Of a DNA stretch of 64,000 bases, positions 1-54,000 are shown in pieces. Made by a program: the position numbers. The stretch comes from Styela clava (Eukaryota), in NCBI RefSeq assembly GCF_964204865.1, contig NC_135251.1, forward strand, positions 23,560,001 through 23,624,000, given 5' to 3'. The stretch's first letter is position 1. The number at the start of each line of letters is the position of its first letter.

Positions 1-3000
1 TTCAGATGCATGATGTGACAACAATACTCTATAAATAGTCTATTTAAAAGGCGTGCGATCGATTTGTACAATTGGCGTATGCATTCTGTTATTGATATTT
101 ACAGATTTTGCTTTAAAAATTGCTTCACAAATTTTTGAATAATATTCTACACCAGAGACATAAGTAAAAACCTCCTTATCGTCCGATGTTTTAAGGTCCG
201 TCATCGGATGTTTGTGGTAATCCCATCTTCCGAACGACAGATCTATGCCAGAAACAAATGCGATCGACTGATCGACAATTATCAGTTTCTCGTGATGAGA
301 CCAAAATAGGTTATTTTCTGAAAAGAACAGAAATAAATTTAAAATATTGATGGGCCATATTACTAGATTCTCAATATTCAAAGGCTCAAATTCACTGCAA
401 TAATATTACAGCAATGAGAGTATTCTACATCAATGTCCTTTTGGCGGGAATACAAAACTCTGAAATAAGTCTGGAAATAGACTGATGACTGATGTGTTAC
501 CCGAAAATCTCATAGGATACATATATATAGTGTGTATGCTTATTTCTTACGTTTCTGTTATATTTTAAGACTACTCATCGAGAAATCATTGTACAACTCA
601 CCCAACCCTAGCCCACGGTGAATTAATACTCGGATATTTTCCTCATTGAGACTTTCCAGAATATATTTTGCATAATGTTCTCCGAGATCCACAACTACTC
701 CCGGACCATTGTAAAGCAATATGTATATCTTGACGCCGGATGCCTTGTAAAATTGCATTAGCTCAAGTTAATATCTTATTATTGCATATTTTTTCACGAG
801 ATTTATCGCTATTGTTATCCTTTCCCAGAACCCGGAGTGAAAGAAAATAGAGAAGTTAGAGGAAACGGAATCCAGTTTTATTTTTATAATATAGTACGAA
901 CTAACCGCTTTCTTTTCTATGATAGTTTTCAGAAGCCATTCATCTTTTAATTCACCCTTGCGCTTCAAGAATATAGCAGGAGAAAACGTCCAACCGGTAA
1001 TAAAGATTTCACTTTTTGCACTTTCCAGTGCATCTGCTACAGCAGAGAAGAAATCACAACCATCAACAAGCCTACAAAGAAATTATTCAAATATTTATTA
1101 TCAGCCACCTGGTAGAAAATATCATGGAAACGTTAGCATACTTAACCAAAATCTTTCCGCGACCACGGCAAAATAAAGCATGAAATAGAAGTGACAAGAT
1201 AAAGATGCGGGTCTGTAGGTTCAAAACCAAACCCGAATAGAAAAACTCGAGTGGATTCAAATAACTCATTTAATTACCATTAATGAAAATGTTAACAACT
1301 ATACCAATGTGCAACTGAAGGTCTTGCAGGTGCAAAGCTTCCGTGCACATTTCCCATTGCACCTCCGAATTCAGATATCACATTTTCCATGTTACTTTCG
1401 ATGCTATCATGCCAATTGATCGCCTCTTCTGAAGTCATACATTTTAAATATATTCTAGAAAATAATTTGAGAAGGAAAATAACATATATATAGTTTATTC
1501 CACTAACTAACTCAACCATGTTATACTAAATTGCATAAAGCCTGGTCAAGTGTGAGAGTGCGGAAACTTCTCATAAAAAATAAAATAGATAAAAATGAAA
1601 CTCACTGCACAGAAGTGTACAAAAAGTTGCGCCAATAATCCGGTTCGAACATACTCAAAATATGAATATATGTGTATATGAATTTATTAGTATAAACACT
1701 TCAACAGTTGGCGAGGACTAATCTTTATCACCTATAGACATAGCAGAATATTTATAACTCACGTATGAGAAGAATTTTTGAGCTTCAAGAAAACCCCTTT
1801 CTCGACTACTACAGATGATACTCCATCAAACAGAAACACTCCCTCGACATATTGCTTTGTTTCATCAAGGTACATCAAAAACTTATCTTTAAGCACAGCC
1901 CATCTGTAAAGTTGTGAGAAATTGAAATTTGAGTTGTTGTATGTCATGTTTCATTTGAGTATTAGATTGGGAACTTCCTACCGTAGTTTATACTTATACA
2001 TATCACTATCAGAAATTTATATTTTTTTCCTAATTTAAACGTCAATGAATAATAAACGCGGTACGTTATTATACAAAAGCGACGATTTTTGCAATAACCA
2101 TAACAGTATTTCCGAATATTTTCCTAGAATTTGACGTAACAACAAGTTAGTCCGCTGCAATAAATTCTGCTTGCCATATAAAGCAATAACAACAAACATT
2201 TGTACTGCAGTAGGGGAAGGTGGGGCACGTTGGGACATGGCGCACAGGAATATCAGCTCTCACACTAATACTATTCGGGATCCGGTCCGCGGTTTGATGT
2301 TTCAATCCGCCCTTCGGTGAGTTACAATGTCCCCGCAAACGGACAGCGGACGGGTAGAGCGACGCAAGCTATGAGGTGAAATTGGTTTTGGGGGGTTGAA
2401 ACTAAAAATTCACCGTTCCAGTTTTTTCTTTTTTCTAACTTAGCCTTTCCAACGTGACAAACCACCGTCTGATATTTTTCAGCTTTAGTCCACTGTGAAA
2501 TATTTATAACGTTGGCGAGTGGATGGGCCTTCTGAATTTCGCCGTGGGATGATCTGAAGATATTTGTTGATTATGGGGAACAATGGACCGGGGTTCAGTG
2601 GGACATGCCCTACATGGCACAATTCGACAGTGTTTGATACAACAAGTTCTTAGAGACCTAGAGATGCGTTATATTTTTATGTAACATTATGGTATCTTTC
2701 AACTCATGGTCCAATATGAAATATATTCTAGAATCAAAAATATTTCCAGATTTAGATTCGGATTAGAAAATAATTTAATTTGTAAGCGAATTTTTTGGTG
2801 AAATATCTGAAATATTTCGGTTGAACATTGATTTCAAAAATCTTAAATCTTCAAATTTGAAGTCTCCCTGTTCTTTAGACGATTATGCTGATTAATTGCT
2901 CATTTTCAAGGGCATACTTCGTTGAATTTTAACAGAATGACCCATTGTGCCCCAGGGTCTGTCCGAATGTGCCCCACAAGTGGGGTACAGTGGGACACTT

Positions 3001-51000: not shown

Positions 51001-54000
51001 CTTGATTGCTGAAAATGAAAAAGAAGTTTTTATTGGTGCAAGTGAAGAATTTAAAATATAATTTATTTCAAGTTAATTCAATTCCTCTTCAAATCTAACG
51101 ATTCCTAAAAATTCCCAAAAATTAGAAATTTCATAACTCATTATGAATCGATTCAAATATTCAGGTCATTTTGAACATCTTTATGATGGCAAATTTTTCA
51201 ATTTAGTACTTTTAATTATTTCTAATATTAAGCATTGAATATGACTAACTTCAAATCTATTCAACCATTTGATTCACTTTGTACATCCCTAAAAGACAGC
51301 TTTCAAAATAAAATTGTTCCCAAATATTCCTGAACTCAAAGGTTTGTCTGAATATAATCTATTTTTAATCAATTTGAAAATATCTTTGATTTGAACATCC
51401 TTTGTAAAAACATGCTTTTGACTTATTTTTTTTATTTATATAAATTCATTTATTACTCATAACAGATTCGCTTTGCTTATCTTTATCTGTATCCAGATCT
51501 CAGTAATAAATAGCCCAACTTACCAAAAGCACTTGTAGTAGAAGGATAAGTGGGACTATCAGGTTCTTCCATTCCTGGCGATGGCAATGGAAGAACTTCA
51601 TATCCCTCACCATCGTCTGACATCACTGTATCCAAGCGATCAAATGAAGGGCGGTTCCTTGCCCTCGCATTAACTCGATCTTGTGCCATATTGTCTTAAG
51701 GTGATCAAATACACTTACATATGCTGAGTAAACTAACCCAAACATTAATGATTAAAAACCACGCTGGTTTGCCAATATTGTCATTATTGAACTACAATAG
51801 GCTACGAGTCTTCATTGCCAATTTACCTGTGAATGATAAGGTACACTTAGAACCATAATTAACAAAGATATGTCGAATGTTTAGGTAAACGAAATTTAAA
51901 TGTTTTTAGTATTAATTTTATATGGTGCCTTTTTTATTCACGCCTTCCACCCAAAGCAAGAACCTGTGCAAGCCGCTACTGATATCAGGCAATGTGTAAA
52001 GAGATATTATTTTTATCAAAAAGTTAAGGTTCTTTGATGTTGAATCACGAATGGCCAAAGTCAAACAGTTTTCTCTAGTTTTTGAGAAATTGAATGCAGG
52101 TCATAATGCTCAATATGATACGATAAGTTTTCAAATAAAACTATCCTAATTAGTTAATTAATTTTTAAACGATTTCCAATATTTCAATCGTTGTGGCTTG
52201 TGGCCAACTTCATGTGGAATAATATATATAAAATAGGTCAGGGCTATGTTATAGTGATTTTGTAGCACAACGTATTATTCGAGTAATATAAAATAAAAAA
52301 GAACTCTATATATCTATAACGCATTCGGAGGCTCTTTGAATCCTCACCAATTACTATATAGGTCATAACATATTTCATATCTGCAATGTGTGTTGGGAAA
52401 ATTTCCTTTCAATCAAGCAGCTGCACAGACAATTTCCTTCATTTGCATAAAATAAACAAAGAATAATAACATGAATCATTGCAGATATGTATTATTACAA
52501 TCATGTTCTATTCCAACAATGCTTTTTCTATTTTTTCCTTCACAAGTAATTTTGGACTATTTCCGGAAAGGAAATGACCTCATAACTATTCCACAATTAG
52601 TTAATTTCCTCTATAGACATTAGAAGATAGAAATTGTAATTCCATATTTTATTTTGTTACGGTGGGTATTTACATTCCTGCTATCATATTATTTAAAGAC
52701 TAACAATATTGCAATAGGCATTGCATTGAATGTAAAAATTTATTATATCGAATTCAAAACATACCTTATTACACTATGTTCAAATTCAGAGCATATGAAA
52801 TCTCAGTAAAGGCTGATAATTAATTTTTGACAAGATGCAACTAGGGAACACATTCATTCGAATAACTTTTGATAATGCAAAACTTAAAAGATTTGAAATT
52901 AAGGTATTCTCAAAACAATTTAATGGCAAACTCCAGAAGCAGTTAGTTTGGTAATTGGTCTCAAAGCTACGAAAGATAAAAGCAGTGCTTCCCAACAGAG
53001 AAGGATTTCGCTGTTTCAGAAGGAAAAATTTCACTTTGCATTTGTATGTAGTATTACTAATATTCTTTTTTTACTTACTCTTTTACTCTATCATTGTAAT
53101 TAACTATTCAAACAGTATAAAATAGTACAAATCATTAGTATCACTAGCTAATGATTCAATAAAGACTGAACTAACACTAATAAAGAGAGGAATAGTAAGA
53201 GAGGAATAAAGAGGTATACACAGGAAGGAATTTGATGAAAAATGTTGGGAACCACTTAATTGAAGGATGTTGTATAAAAAATTTTGATTGATTATTTGAC
53301 CTGATTGATTTTTCATTGTATATTTATAAAAACATAACAATAGGTTTTATTTATCAATGACTTATAATTAGGGTAGGCCTACATAGGAGCTACTGTGTTA
53401 TTTTATTTATGAAAACATTCTATTTATAGCAATGACTGTAAAGCTAAACCTCTTACAGTCTTAAAAATACGCTACTTTGCAAATTTTGTATTTCAATGTA
53501 TCTTGTTCTCCAAATTTATTCTAGTAATTTCCAAATGATGCACACCTTCGCTTGGAAATTTTTCTATACAAACAGCCATTTATACATTGAATGTTTTTCT
53601 GTTTATGGAATTAAAAGATATTGCAAAGAACATGAAAAGAAGGCATAATTTTTTCACATACAGAAACCAGGAAACCTTTCATTGATATACTAAGTTTATC
53701 TGAATTGCAGCATTGTTTGTCTGTTTACTTACTAGTACTGAAAAATGTACCCTATAATTAAATAATGACATAAATTATTACAAAACCCTTAATTGACCAT
53801 TCCACATTCTGACATATGTTTTCCATTGTTGATCGCCATGTACAGATGTATGTACTGATGTAATACCAAAGTCTTATAAAACATATGAAATGTTTCCATC
53901 CATTCATCCTGCAATTAATAAAATATACGATTTCGTTAACGACGACTTCTGTAATTGAGTTGTTCTAAACTTCTGCGTGGATCTTCAACCTAAACTACGC

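What the first reader, a model, noticed from the sequence alone, without database searches (positions are those of the whole stretch)
172..51689. Tandem three-gene phospholipase D array with asymmetric evolution: one conserved parent and two compact, remodelled daughters
Seen: three same-strand PX-PH-PLD genes with matching intron phases and several identical exon lengths (66/59/166/142 nt in all three; 111/155/103 nt in B and C). C spans 28.8 kb and is canonical. B spans 9.7 kb, and A and B are strongly diverged yet have no stops or frameshifts in the reconstructed exons. Known: many invertebrates have one classical PLD and vertebrates have PLD1 and PLD2. Inference: a lineage-specific PLD expansion producing catalytically intact enzymes with rewired regulation, possibly a specialised lipid-signalling or lipid-processing system. 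More copies may lie left of the window.
Basis: partly seen in the sequence, partly recalled or inferred. Interest (0 to 1): 0.72.

Follow-up and report, generated by a model that had tools for sequence, protein, structure and literature searches.

The report
Old tandem array of phospholipase D genes
An invertebrate-type genome segment carries three neighbouring phospholipase D genes: one long gene that stays close to the human enzymes, and two compact, strongly changed but still constrained copies, one of them cut off by the window edge.

Summary
Three PLD-like genes lie head to tail on the minus strand. A runs from 5800 to the left edge and only its 5' half, through HKD1, is visible. B is 17545-7804 (9.7 kb). 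C is 51689-22908 (28.8 kb). The exon lengths 66/59/166/142 nt (all three) and 111/155/103 nt (B, C) and all shared intron phases are confirmed.

Over exons 3-12 the copies are about 40-41% identical. Synonymous sites are saturated (pS 0.74-0.81) and pN is 0.40-0.43. These are therefore old duplicates under purifying selection.

C is closest to human PLD1/PLD2. On exon 10 it scores 75 bits, against 41 for B and 35 for A. On exon 11 it scores 39 bits and A and B find no PLD. On exon 16 B nearly equals C. A and B share derived residues, which suggests ((A,B),C).

B has both HKD motifs. A's HKD2 lies off the window. The Pfam PX model hits only C.

This is an ordinary gene-family expansion of moderate interest, because invertebrates are usually said to have one PLD. 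The window is not taken for human.

The parts
151..5800 (-). Gene A (partial). ATG at 5800. Exons 1-12 reach HKD1 and the rest lies left of the window.
5661..5800 (-). A exon 1 (140 nt, ATG, ends in phase 2). It corresponds to exons 1+2 of B and C in one short exon.
   Evidence: in-frame stop 6 codons upstream
4935..5057 (-). A exon 3 (123 nt), homologous to the PX exon. No Pfam PX hit.
4752..4875 (-). A exon 4 (124 nt, the same length as in C)
4020..4085 (-). A exon 5 (66 nt)
3422..3480 (-). A exon 6 (59 nt)
3282..3338 (-). A exon 7 (57 nt). First PH-region exon, 17 codons shorter than in C, keeps a CC pair.
1763..1903 (-). A exon 8 (141 nt), PH region
1305..1454 (-). A exon 9 (150 nt), end of the PH region
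906..1071 (-). A exon 10 (166 nt), start of the catalytic domain
602..743 (-). A exon 11 (142 nt)
160..317 (-). A exon 12 with HKD1 (HHEKLIIVD). The 3' end is uncertain: 172, 160 or 151, all phase 0 with weak donors.
   Evidence: (PLDc 31.9 bits)
7804..17545 (-). Gene B, complete model: 23 exons, 2,688 nt with the stop, about 895 aa, 9.7 kb
17446..17545 (-). B exon 1 (100 nt, ATG)
16748..16847 (-). B exon 2 (100 nt)
16539..16661 (-). B exon 3 (123 nt), homologous to the PX exon. No Pfam PX hit.
16004..16112 (-). B exon 4 (109 nt, or 127 nt from an acceptor at 16130)
15821..15886 (-). B exon 5 (66 nt)
15627..15685 (-). B exon 6 (59 nt)
15479..15541 (-). B exon 7 (63 nt). Short PH-region exon, keeps a CC pair.
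15009..15146 (-). B exon 8 (138 nt), PH region
14429..14578 (-). B exon 9 (150 nt with a GC donor gcaagt at the position conserved in A and C, or 165 nt with a GT donor and exon end at 14414)
14023..14188 (-). B exon 10 (166 nt)
13610..13751 (-). B exon 11 (142 nt)
12892..13043 (-). B exon 12 (152 nt) with HKD1 (HHEKLVIID)
   Evidence: PLDc 35.4 bits
12444..12543 (-). B exon 13 (100 nt) with the W.G.DY motif. Only about 22 residues separate the LTD of HKD1 from it.
12117..12235 (-). B exon 14 (119 nt)
11688..11804 (-). B exon 15 (117 nt, or exon end at 11694). B exons 14+15 equal C's single exon 15, so B has one extra intron (12116-11805).
11323..11433 (-). B exon 16 (111 nt)
10615..10769 (-). 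B exon 17 (155 nt), basic stretch, weak donor GTGGAA
10100..10203 (-). B exon 18 (104 nt)
9615..9752 (-). B exon 19 (138 nt) with HKD2 (VHSKLMIADD)
   Evidence: PLDc 17.0 bits; the motif is split by the intron
8862..8964 (-). B exon 20 (103 nt), (G)SANINDRS
8435..8603 (-). B exon 21 (169 nt)
8091..8195 (-). B exon 22 (105 nt)
7804..7902 (-). B exon 23 with the stop. The protein ends ...PVSVFT.
22908..51689 (-). Gene C, 28.8 kb, at least 22 exons, about 1,000 aa. The conserved copy.
51524..51689 (-). C exon 1 (166 nt, ATG at 51689)
50852..51008 (-). C exon 2 (157 nt)
49994..50122 (-). C exon 3 (129 nt), PX
   Evidence: PF00787, 22.6 bits, cut-off 21.6
49248..49371 (-). C exon 4 (124 nt)
46313..46378 (-). 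C exon 5 (66 nt)
45805..45863 (-). C exon 6 (59 nt)
44054..44161 (-). C exon 7 (108 nt), PH region with the long Cys-rich stretch
43447..43590 (-). C exon 8 (144 nt), PH region
   Evidence: PH_3 15.7 bits, below the cut-off
42021..42167 (-). C exon 9 (147 nt)
40400..40565 (-). C exon 10 (166 nt)
39569..39710 (-). C exon 11 (142 nt)
37627..37793 (-). C exon 12 with HKD1 (HHEKIVIID). The 3' end is uncertain: 37662, 37640, 37627 or 37612.
   Evidence: PLDc 42.3 bits
35261..35309 (-). Tentative 49-nt loop exon of C. It would reconcile the phases and has strong splice sites, but no homology supports it.
29912..30058 (-). C exon 14 with the W.G.DY motif. The 5' end is uncertain.
29493..29731 (-). 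C exon 15 (239 nt)
28580..28690 (-). C exon 16 (111 nt)
27518..27672 (-). C exon 17 (155 nt)
26972..27066 (-). C exon 18 (95 nt, or from an acceptor at 27072)
26545..26676 (-). C exon 19 (132 nt) with HKD2 ([10 protein letters not shown])
   Evidence: PLDc 21.2 bits
25322..25424 (-). C exon 20 (103 nt), (G)SANINDRS
24591..24783 (-). C exon 21 (193 nt)
23917..24024 (-). C exon 22 (108 nt)
22908..23015 (-). C exon 23 with the stop. The protein ends ...PTALWT.

Best explanation
The window holds an old, local tandem array of classical (PX-PH-HKD) phospholipase D genes.

Order of events. One duplication separated C from the ancestor of A and B. That ancestor accumulated many substitutions and deletions. 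It then duplicated again, also long ago, giving A and B.

Gene C. C keeps the ancestral PLD1-like sequence and a long-intron gene.

Genes A and B. They are compact genes whose products keep the catalytic core. B has HKD1, HKD2, the (G)SANINDRS and IYIE-NQFF stretches, and a basic stretch in exon 17. A shows HKD1 only, because the rest lies off the window. Their targeting and regulatory parts are altered:
- PX exons are too diverged for the Pfam model.
- The first PH-region exon is 15-17 codons shorter.
- The N-termini are shorter.
- In B, only about 22 residues lie between HKD1 and the W.G.DY motif.

Mechanism (inferred from established HKD-superfamily chemistry, not shown here). The two HKD halves fold into one active site. 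A histidine attacks the phosphodiester of phosphatidylcholine, forming a phosphatidyl-enzyme intermediate. Water releases phosphatidic acid, or a primary alcohol gives a phosphatidyl-alcohol.

I infer that A and B make phosphatidic acid under different membrane and activator control from C. This would resemble the way loop-less vertebrate PLD2 differs from PLD1.

What is shown: the gene anatomy, the motifs, the old age, the constraint, and the uneven conservation. What is inferred: activity, regulation, expression, and how far back in the lineage the duplications lie.
For: Anatomy and shared intron phases.

No further copy or relic in the window: 93 of 93 tblastn hits of exon peptides fall inside the models.

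HKD motifs: Pfam PLDc on exon 12 gives C 42.3, B 35.4 and A 31.9 bits. On exon 19 it gives C 21.2 and B 17.0 bits.

Age and constraint over exons 3-12:
- Identity: A-B 158/381, A-C 153/381, B-C 153/381.
- pS 0.74-0.81 and pN 0.40-0.43.
- B-C over exons 16-23: 164/317 identical, pS 0.757, pN 0.315.
- The A-B path alone shows pN 0.397 against pS 0.812, so constraint holds within the derived pair.

Composition: exon GC is 0.37-0.40 against intron GC 0.31-0.34 in all three genes.

C is the conserved copy (PDB bits against PLD1/PLD2):
- Exon 10: C 75.0/67.7, B 40.8/47.7, A 35.4/39.9.
- Exon 11: C 38.8/31.1; B and A have no PLD hit at E<=1.
- Exon 17: C 53.4/41.0, B 43.0/27.2.

A+B share a stem. Site patterns over 372 gap-free columns are AB|C 54, AC|B 42 and BC|A 41. 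Of the 16 AB|C sites in exons 10-11, read by eye against the PLD1 rows printed, C equals PLD1 at 6, A/B equal PLD1 at 2, and 8 are uninformative.

Remodelling: PX is hit only in C. Exon 7 is 108 nt in C against 63 and 57 nt in B and A.
Against: - The asymmetry is not uniform. On exon 16 B scores 31.8/28.3 against C's 33.1/19.4.
- The three pairwise identities are nearly equal, so the ((A,B),C) grouping rests on 54 against 42 and 41 site patterns and a by-eye 6-against-2 outgroup count. No tree was made.
- There is no expression evidence.
- Several junctions are uncertain: A exon 12 end; B exon 4 start; B exon 9 GC donor; B exon 17 weak donor; C between exons 12 and 14.
- A's HKD2 and C-terminus are unseen.
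- Single exons are short, so the lack of a Pfam PX or PH hit in A and B may reflect power rather than loss.
- dN/dS could not be estimated, because dS is saturated and no orthologues were available. Recent loss of constraint cannot be excluded.
Confidence: 0.65

Rival explanations
1. A and B belong to an ancient second subfamily of PX-PH PLDs that arose before this lineage separated from other animal phyla. On this view it was kept here, in tandem with the PLD1-like gene, and lost or overlooked elsewhere. It would not be a lineage-specific expansion.
For: C is more like human PLD1 than like its own neighbours on exon 10. C and PLD1 share 35 of 55 residues by eye, against C-A 27/55 and C-B 32/55. 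Synonymous sites are saturated in all pairs. On exon 10 the unrooted grouping (A,B | C,human) is compatible with a root on the internal branch. PMC6435507 (passages read) places some invertebrate PLDs (Hydra, Schistosoma) on deep, separate branches.
Against: The tandem position and fully shared intron phases fit local duplication. Rate acceleration in the A/B stem explains the same distances. The three literature searches found no description of such a subfamily. Those searches cover open-access text only, and supplements were closed.
Confidence: 0.3
2. A and/or B are decaying or untranscribed copies (young pseudogenes or relics) whose open frames are left over from past constraint.
For: There is no expression evidence. 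Some splice sites are weak or non-canonical: B exon 17 donor GTGGAA, the B exon 9 GC donor, and all three A exon 12 donors. Pfam PX is not detected.
Against: There are no stops or frame shifts in 23 B exons or 11 A exons, even though synonymous sites are saturated. pN is about half of pS, even on the A-B path. All catalytic motif residues that can be seen are intact. Exon GC is raised over intron GC as in C. The ATGs have in-frame stops upstream.
Confidence: 0.07
3. A and B are expressed and folded but no longer act as phosphatidylcholine-hydrolysing signalling PLDs. They may have another lipid substrate, or a mainly non-catalytic (scaffolding or regulatory) role.
For: There is strong divergence next to the active site. 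Exon 11 of A and B no longer finds PLD1/2 at E<=1. A and B share replacements in stretches that are identical between C and human PLD1 in the printed alignments. B's C-terminus ends VFT where C ends LWT.
Against: HKD1 and HKD2 and the flanking conserved stretches are intact in B. Exons 16 and 17 of B still score 31.8 and 43.0 bits against PLD1. A purely non-catalytic role would not need these.
Confidence: 0.15

Closest known systems
Human PLD1 (solved catalytic domain, PDB 6u8z and 6ohr)
   Same: C matches it best on every exon tested: exon 10, 75.0 bits; exon 11, 38.8; exon 16, 33.1; exon 17, 53.4. Both have two HKD motifs, the same order of conserved stretches, and a long gene.
   Different: C is about 1,000 aa by the model. 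It has a much shorter stretch between HKD1 and W.G.DY than I recall for PLD1 (recalled, not tested). A and B score far lower or not at all on exons 10-11.
Human PLD2 (PDB 6ohm)
   Same: A and B resemble it in kind: a compact gene, a short inter-HKD loop (B), and PX-PH-HKD order. On exon 10, A and B score slightly higher against PLD2 than PLD1 (39.9 against 35.4; 47.7 against 40.8).
   Different: There is no consistent affinity. B scores higher against PLD1 on exons 16 and 17. A and B are not shown to be PLD2 orthologues, and the resemblance would be parallel evolution.
The single Pld gene of Drosophila and other invertebrates (PMC6435507; abstract and passages read)
   Same: C looks like the usual invertebrate PLD1-like gene.
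   Different: That paper states that invertebrate genomes hold one PLD gene. Here at least three lie in tandem.
Mouse PLD1/PLD2 gene-size contrast (147 kb against 17.1 kb; PMC6435507 discussion, read)
   Same: One long conserved gene sits beside a compact paralogue. Here the sizes are 28.8 kb against 9.7 kb.
   Different: Here the paralogues are adjacent on one strand and number at least two. The vertebrate pair is, as I recall, unlinked (recalled, not tested).

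Membership tests
Classical eukaryotic PLD (PX-PH-HKD, PLD1/PLD2 type) | First HKD motif (H.K....D followed by G[GS].[DN]) | tested here: met
   Pfam PLDc PF00614 on exon 12: C 42.3, B 35.4, A 31.9 bits, against a cut-off of 21.9. The motif letters are visible.
Classical eukaryotic PLD (PX-PH-HKD, PLD1/PLD2 type) | Second HKD motif | tested here: inconclusive
   B and C both have VHSK....DD followed by (G)SANINDRS across the exon 19/20 junction. 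Pfam PLDc on the exon-19 part alone scores C 21.2 and B 17.0 bits, just under the cut-off, because an intron splits the motif. A's second motif lies off the window.
Classical eukaryotic PLD (PX-PH-HKD, PLD1/PLD2 type) | N-terminal PX domain | tested here: inconclusive
   C exon 3 hits PF00787 at 22.6 bits, cut-off 21.6. A and B exon 3 give no hit at E<=1. They are nonetheless homologous to each other and to C by blastp: A-B 2.7e-6, B-C 1.2e-5. Exon-sized queries have little power.
Classical eukaryotic PLD (PX-PH-HKD, PLD1/PLD2 type) | PH domain after the PX domain | tested here: inconclusive
   The only Pfam match is a sub-threshold PH_3 hit on C exon 8: 15.7 bits, cut-off 25. A and B exons 8-9 are homologous to C's, with blastp E-values from 1e-7 to 1e-12.
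Classical eukaryotic PLD (PX-PH-HKD, PLD1/PLD2 type) | Sequence similarity of the catalytic region to solved PLD1/PLD2 | tested here: met
   C matches on 4 of 4 exons tested, B on 3 of 4 and A on 1 of 2, at E<=1.
Classical eukaryotic PLD (PX-PH-HKD, PLD1/PLD2 type) | Conserved C-terminal end needed for activity (recalled from the PLD literature) | tested here: inconclusive
   C ends ...LWT and B ends ...VFT. A's end is unseen. The importance of the terminal residues is recalled and was not checked in a paper here.
Classical eukaryotic PLD (PX-PH-HKD, PLD1/PLD2 type) | PC hydrolysis and transphosphatidylation activity | not testable with these tools
   This needs recombinant protein and a lipid assay.
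Orthology to vertebrate PLD1 or to PLD2 | Placement in a tree of full-length proteins | not tested
Bit scores only: C favours PLD1 on 4 of 4 exons. B favours PLD1 on 2 of the 3 exons where it has hits. A favours PLD2 on its one exon with a hit.

The most novel reading that the evidence does not exclude
An invertebrate lineage independently re-invented the vertebrate PLD1/PLD2 division of labour. It kept a long, conserved, regulated PLD1-like gene. Beside it, it evolved at least two compact, short-loop paralogues with degenerate PX domains, which would be constitutively active or differently targeted. More copies may lie to the left of the window. This would give a natural experiment on which parts of PLD set its regulation.
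Probability: 0.25. Interest if true: 0.55.

Novelty: new member of a known kind. Interest (0 to 1): 0.33.

Why it matters
Reviews and functional papers treat invertebrates as having a single classical PLD (PMC6435507, abstract). An array of one conserved and at least two divergent but constrained copies would show that this is not general.

It would also offer natural variants in which the catalytic core is kept while the PX domain, the PH loop and the inter-HKD loop are changed. Such variants are useful for asking which parts confer activator dependence and membrane targeting.

Beyond that it is an ordinary case of gene duplication and divergence.

Tried and rejected
- **Pfam, exon by exon.** Searched 20 of 22 C exons, 22 of 23 B exons and 8 of 11 A exons. 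The rest are 18-22 aa and were left out, as was the tentative 49-nt C exon. Only PX (C exon 3), PLDc (exons 12 and 19) and a weak PH_3 (C exon 8) are meaningful. The other listed matches (DUFs, GreAB-C, PI4K_N, PHDvar_NSD, DSRB) are far below their cut-offs and I take them as chance.
- **ESM Atlas on B exon 11.** The best score was 0.84, a bacterial PLDc_2 cluster. That is below the level the tool calls evidence, so it is a lead only. The second Atlas call was not used.
- **Splice-length scan.** It paired C's 155-nt exon with an off-register B candidate (10739-10585). The in-register B exon 10769-10615 was found by reading.
- **A exon 12 donor.** My first guess, a strong donor at 160, was wrong and one search corrected it.
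- **C between exon 12 and exon 14.** Many candidate exons exist, none with homology support, so this is left unresolved.
- **Repeats, tRNA, Rfam.** There are no tracts of high DNA identity between the genes beyond conserved exons 20-21 (74-79%), so no sign of recent gene conversion. No RNA genes were found.
- **Literature.** No report of tandem PX-PH PLD arrays in invertebrates turned up. One search failed on a too-short term.
- **Not done.** The structure, fold-search and complex tools were not used. The protein collections, metagenome and viral collections and paper supplements were closed. The taxon list of PMC6435507's tree (Supplementary Table S3) may bear on whether multi-copy invertebrates were already sampled. 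The only open genome collection is prokaryotic and was not searched. The organism was not identified.

Full report
**What the window is.** It is 64,000 bases with no N. GC is about 26-38% in 2-kb steps. Its PLD-like genes are intron-rich, and a PHTF homologue in one long ORF lies to the right. It carries three adjacent PLD genes. The best of them is only 35 of 55 residues identical to human PLD1 on its most conserved exon (counted by eye). I therefore do not take the window for human; it looks like an invertebrate animal genome. The organism was not identified.

**Checking the observation.** I ran an all-against-all blastp of 2,415 stop-to-stop ORF fragments from both strands at E<=1e-3. It gave three collinear series of minus-strand fragments:
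- A at 43-5146
- B at 8052-16705
- C at 23908-50139

I then looked for AG...GT-bounded open exons around each fragment and kept those that preserve the reading phase from exon to exon. The models are tabulated.

- 66 nt, 59 nt, and 166 and 142 nt in all three genes
- 111 and 103 nt and 155 nt in B and C

The spans also match. C runs from the ATG at 51689 to the stop at 22908, which is 28.8 kb. B runs from 17545 to 7804, which is 9.7 kb.

The B model has 23 exons and sums to 2,688 nt, or 896 codons with the stop. A's eleven visible exons sum to 1,326 nt. Neither has a stop or a frame shift. Every acceptor is AG. Every donor is GT except one candidate GC donor in B.

tblastn of all exon peptides of 30 aa or more against the window gave 93 hits, and all 93 fall inside the models. 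So the window holds no fourth copy or relic.

- All three genes are on the minus strand.
- A is cut by the window. Its last visible exon carries HKD1, and everything downstream, including HKD2, lies to the left.
- The end of that exon is unclear.
- In C the junction between the HKD1 exon and the exon with the W.G.DY motif does not close in phase with the best sites. A 49-nt exon at 35309-35261 with strong sites would close it, but nothing supports it beyond that.
- Other soft spots are the start of B exon 4, the end of B exon 9 (a GC donor at the position conserved in A and C, or a GT donor 15 nt further on), the end of B exon 15, and the weak donor of B exon 17.
- The gene structures differ in two places. 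B has an intron (12116-11805) inside what is one exon in C. A begins with one 140-nt exon where B and C have two.

Pfam results:
- PLDc on the HKD1 exon: C 42.3, B 35.4, A 31.9 bits, against a cut-off of 21.9
- PLDc on the first part of HKD2: C 21.2, B 17.0 bits. An intron splits the motif.
- PX on C exon 3 only: 22.6 bits, cut-off 21.6
- A sub-threshold PH_3 on C exon 8

The remaining exons gave nothing meaningful.

The exon translations show H.K....D in HKD1 of all three genes and in HKD2 of B and C. B and C also show the (G)SANINDRS stretch across the exon 19/20 junction, the ...YIYIE / NQFFIS junction of exons 16/17, and a basic stretch in exon 17. C ends in ...LWT and B in ...VFT.

The PX- and PH-region exons of A and B are homologous to those of C by blastp, with E-values from 1e-5 to 1e-12, even though Pfam does not see them at exon size.

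**Age and constraint.**

| Pair | Exons | Identical / aligned | pS | pN |
|---|---|---|---|---|
| A-B | 3-12 | 158/381 (41.5%) | 0.812 | 0.397 |
| A-C | 3-12 | 153/381 (40.2%) | 0.736 | 0.433 |
| B-C | 3-12 | 153/381 (40.2%) | 0.761 | 0.428 |
| B-C | 16-23 | 164/317 (51.7%) | 0.757 | 0.315 |

The synonymous values are at saturation. No dS, and so no dN/dS, can be trusted. The one finite estimate, A-C at about 0.22, is unreliable.

Two conclusions survive. Both duplications are old. And replacement changes have been held well below silent ones, including on the A-B path, which does not involve C.

Exon GC (0.37-0.40) exceeds intron GC (0.31-0.34) in all three genes. No long DNA identity links the genes beyond conserved exons 20-21 at 74-79%. 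So there is no sign of recent gene conversion and no assembly duplicate.

**Asymmetry.** Scores are in bits, and "none" means no PLD hit at E<=1.

| Exon | Copy | vs PLD1 | vs PLD2 |
|---|---|---|---|
| 10 | C | 75.0 | 67.7 |
| 10 | B | 40.8 | 47.7 |
| 10 | A | 35.4 | 39.9 |
| 11 | C | 38.8 | 31.1 |
| 11 | B, A | none | none |
| 17 | C | 53.4 | 41.0 |
| 17 | B | 43.0 | 27.2 |
| 16 | C | 33.1 | 19.4 |
| 16 | B | 31.8 | 28.3 |

C is the conserved copy on 3 of 4 exons clearly, and against PLD1 on 4 of 4. On exon 16 the two are practically equal, and B is ahead against PLD2. The asymmetry is real but concentrated in the N-terminal part of the catalytic domain and in the PX-PH region.

**Order of events.** With three sequences, the site patterns over 372 gap-free columns of exons 3-12 are:
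- identical in all three: 106
- A=B, C different: 54
- A=C, B different: 42
- B=C, A different: 41
- all three different: 129

The branch separating C from the A/B node is thus the longest, although C is the copy closest to human. The simplest reading is that much of that branch is a stem shared by A and B.

I checked this by eye against the PLD1 rows printed. Of the 16 A=B, C-different sites in exons 10-11, C has the human residue at 6, A/B have it at 2, and 8 are uninformative. This favours ((A,B),C) with a slowly evolving C. It is thin evidence and no substitute for a tree.

**Remodelling seen directly.**
- The first PH-region exon is 108 nt in C but 63 nt in B and 57 nt in A. All three keep a Cys-Cys pair there. 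That these cysteines are lipid-modified in PLD1 is recalled, not tested.
- B has about 22 residues between the LTD of HKD1 and the W.G.DY motif. C has at least 38 even without any extra exon.
- The N-terminal exons before the PX region are 46 codons in A and 33+32 in B, against 55+51 in C.
- Over the same exons 1-12, A spans about 5.6 kb, B 4.65 kb and C about 14.1 kb (coordinates).

**Mechanism.** By the established chemistry of the HKD superfamily, the two HKD halves form one active site. A histidine makes a phosphatidyl-enzyme intermediate, which water resolves to phosphatidic acid or a primary alcohol resolves to a phosphatidyl-alcohol.

B has every motif residue I could check. I think it most likely an active PLD whose membrane targeting and activator dependence differ from C's. 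A is probably the same, but half of it is unseen. All of this is inference. Nothing here shows expression or activity.

**Comparison with what is known.** PMC6435507 (abstract and passages read) states that invertebrate genomes hold a single PLD gene and that insect Pld is nearer to PLD1. It also notes that mouse PLD1 is 147 kb and PLD2 17.1 kb.

C fits the usual invertebrate PLD1-like gene. A and B are extra, and the long-conserved against compact-divergent contrast recalls PLD1/PLD2. A and B show no consistent affinity to PLD2, however: exon 10 favours PLD2, while exons 16 and 17 favour PLD1.

Three full-text searches found no report of tandem PX-PH PLD arrays in invertebrates. Supplements, including the taxon table of that paper's tree, were closed.

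**What stayed open.** Whether the array is lineage-specific or an old subfamily could not be tested. Expression, A's 3' half, any further copies to the left, and the exact splice junctions listed above also remain open.

**Verdict.** This is a new member, or a small new set of members, of a well-known enzyme family, of moderate interest.

Noticed in passing
window 56718-58877 (+): A 719-codon open frame with a PHTF1/2 N-terminal domain (PF12129, 178.3 bits, E 1.1e-52). Its first ATG is three bases into the frame. It lies head to head with PLD gene C, about 5 kb from C's ATG.
   Followed up: partly
window 12116-11805 (-), compared with 29731-29493: B has an intron inside the stretch that C encodes as one 239-nt exon. 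This is an intron gain in B or a loss in C since the duplication.
   Followed up: partly
window 14428-14423 (-): A candidate GC-AG intron. At the exact position where A and C have GT donors, B reads gcaagt. A GT donor 15 nt downstream is the alternative.
   Followed up: partly
window 5800-5661 (-): Gene A starts with a single 140-nt exon that covers what B and C split into exons 1 and 2. Its N-terminus is much shorter than C's.
   Followed up: partly
window 4934-4876 (-): The intron between A exons 3 and 4 is only 59 nt in the model. B also has introns of 85-86 nt, while C's shortest is 180 nt.
   Followed up: no
window 23353-23422 and 28109-28178: A 70-nt direct repeat at 76% identity. One copy lies in the last intron of C (between exons 22 and 23) and the other in the intron between exons 16 and 17. 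It is probably a dispersed repeat.
   Followed up: no
window 18071-18421 and 38656-38808: Weak translated similarity between a stretch upstream of B, which also matches itself in opposite orientation, and a stretch in a C intron. It may be a small mobile-element remnant. The repeat finder at a 70-nt minimum reported no inverted repeat.
   Followed up: no
window 32001-34000: The lowest GC of the window (0.255) falls inside the unresolved 7.6-kb interval of gene C.
   Followed up: no
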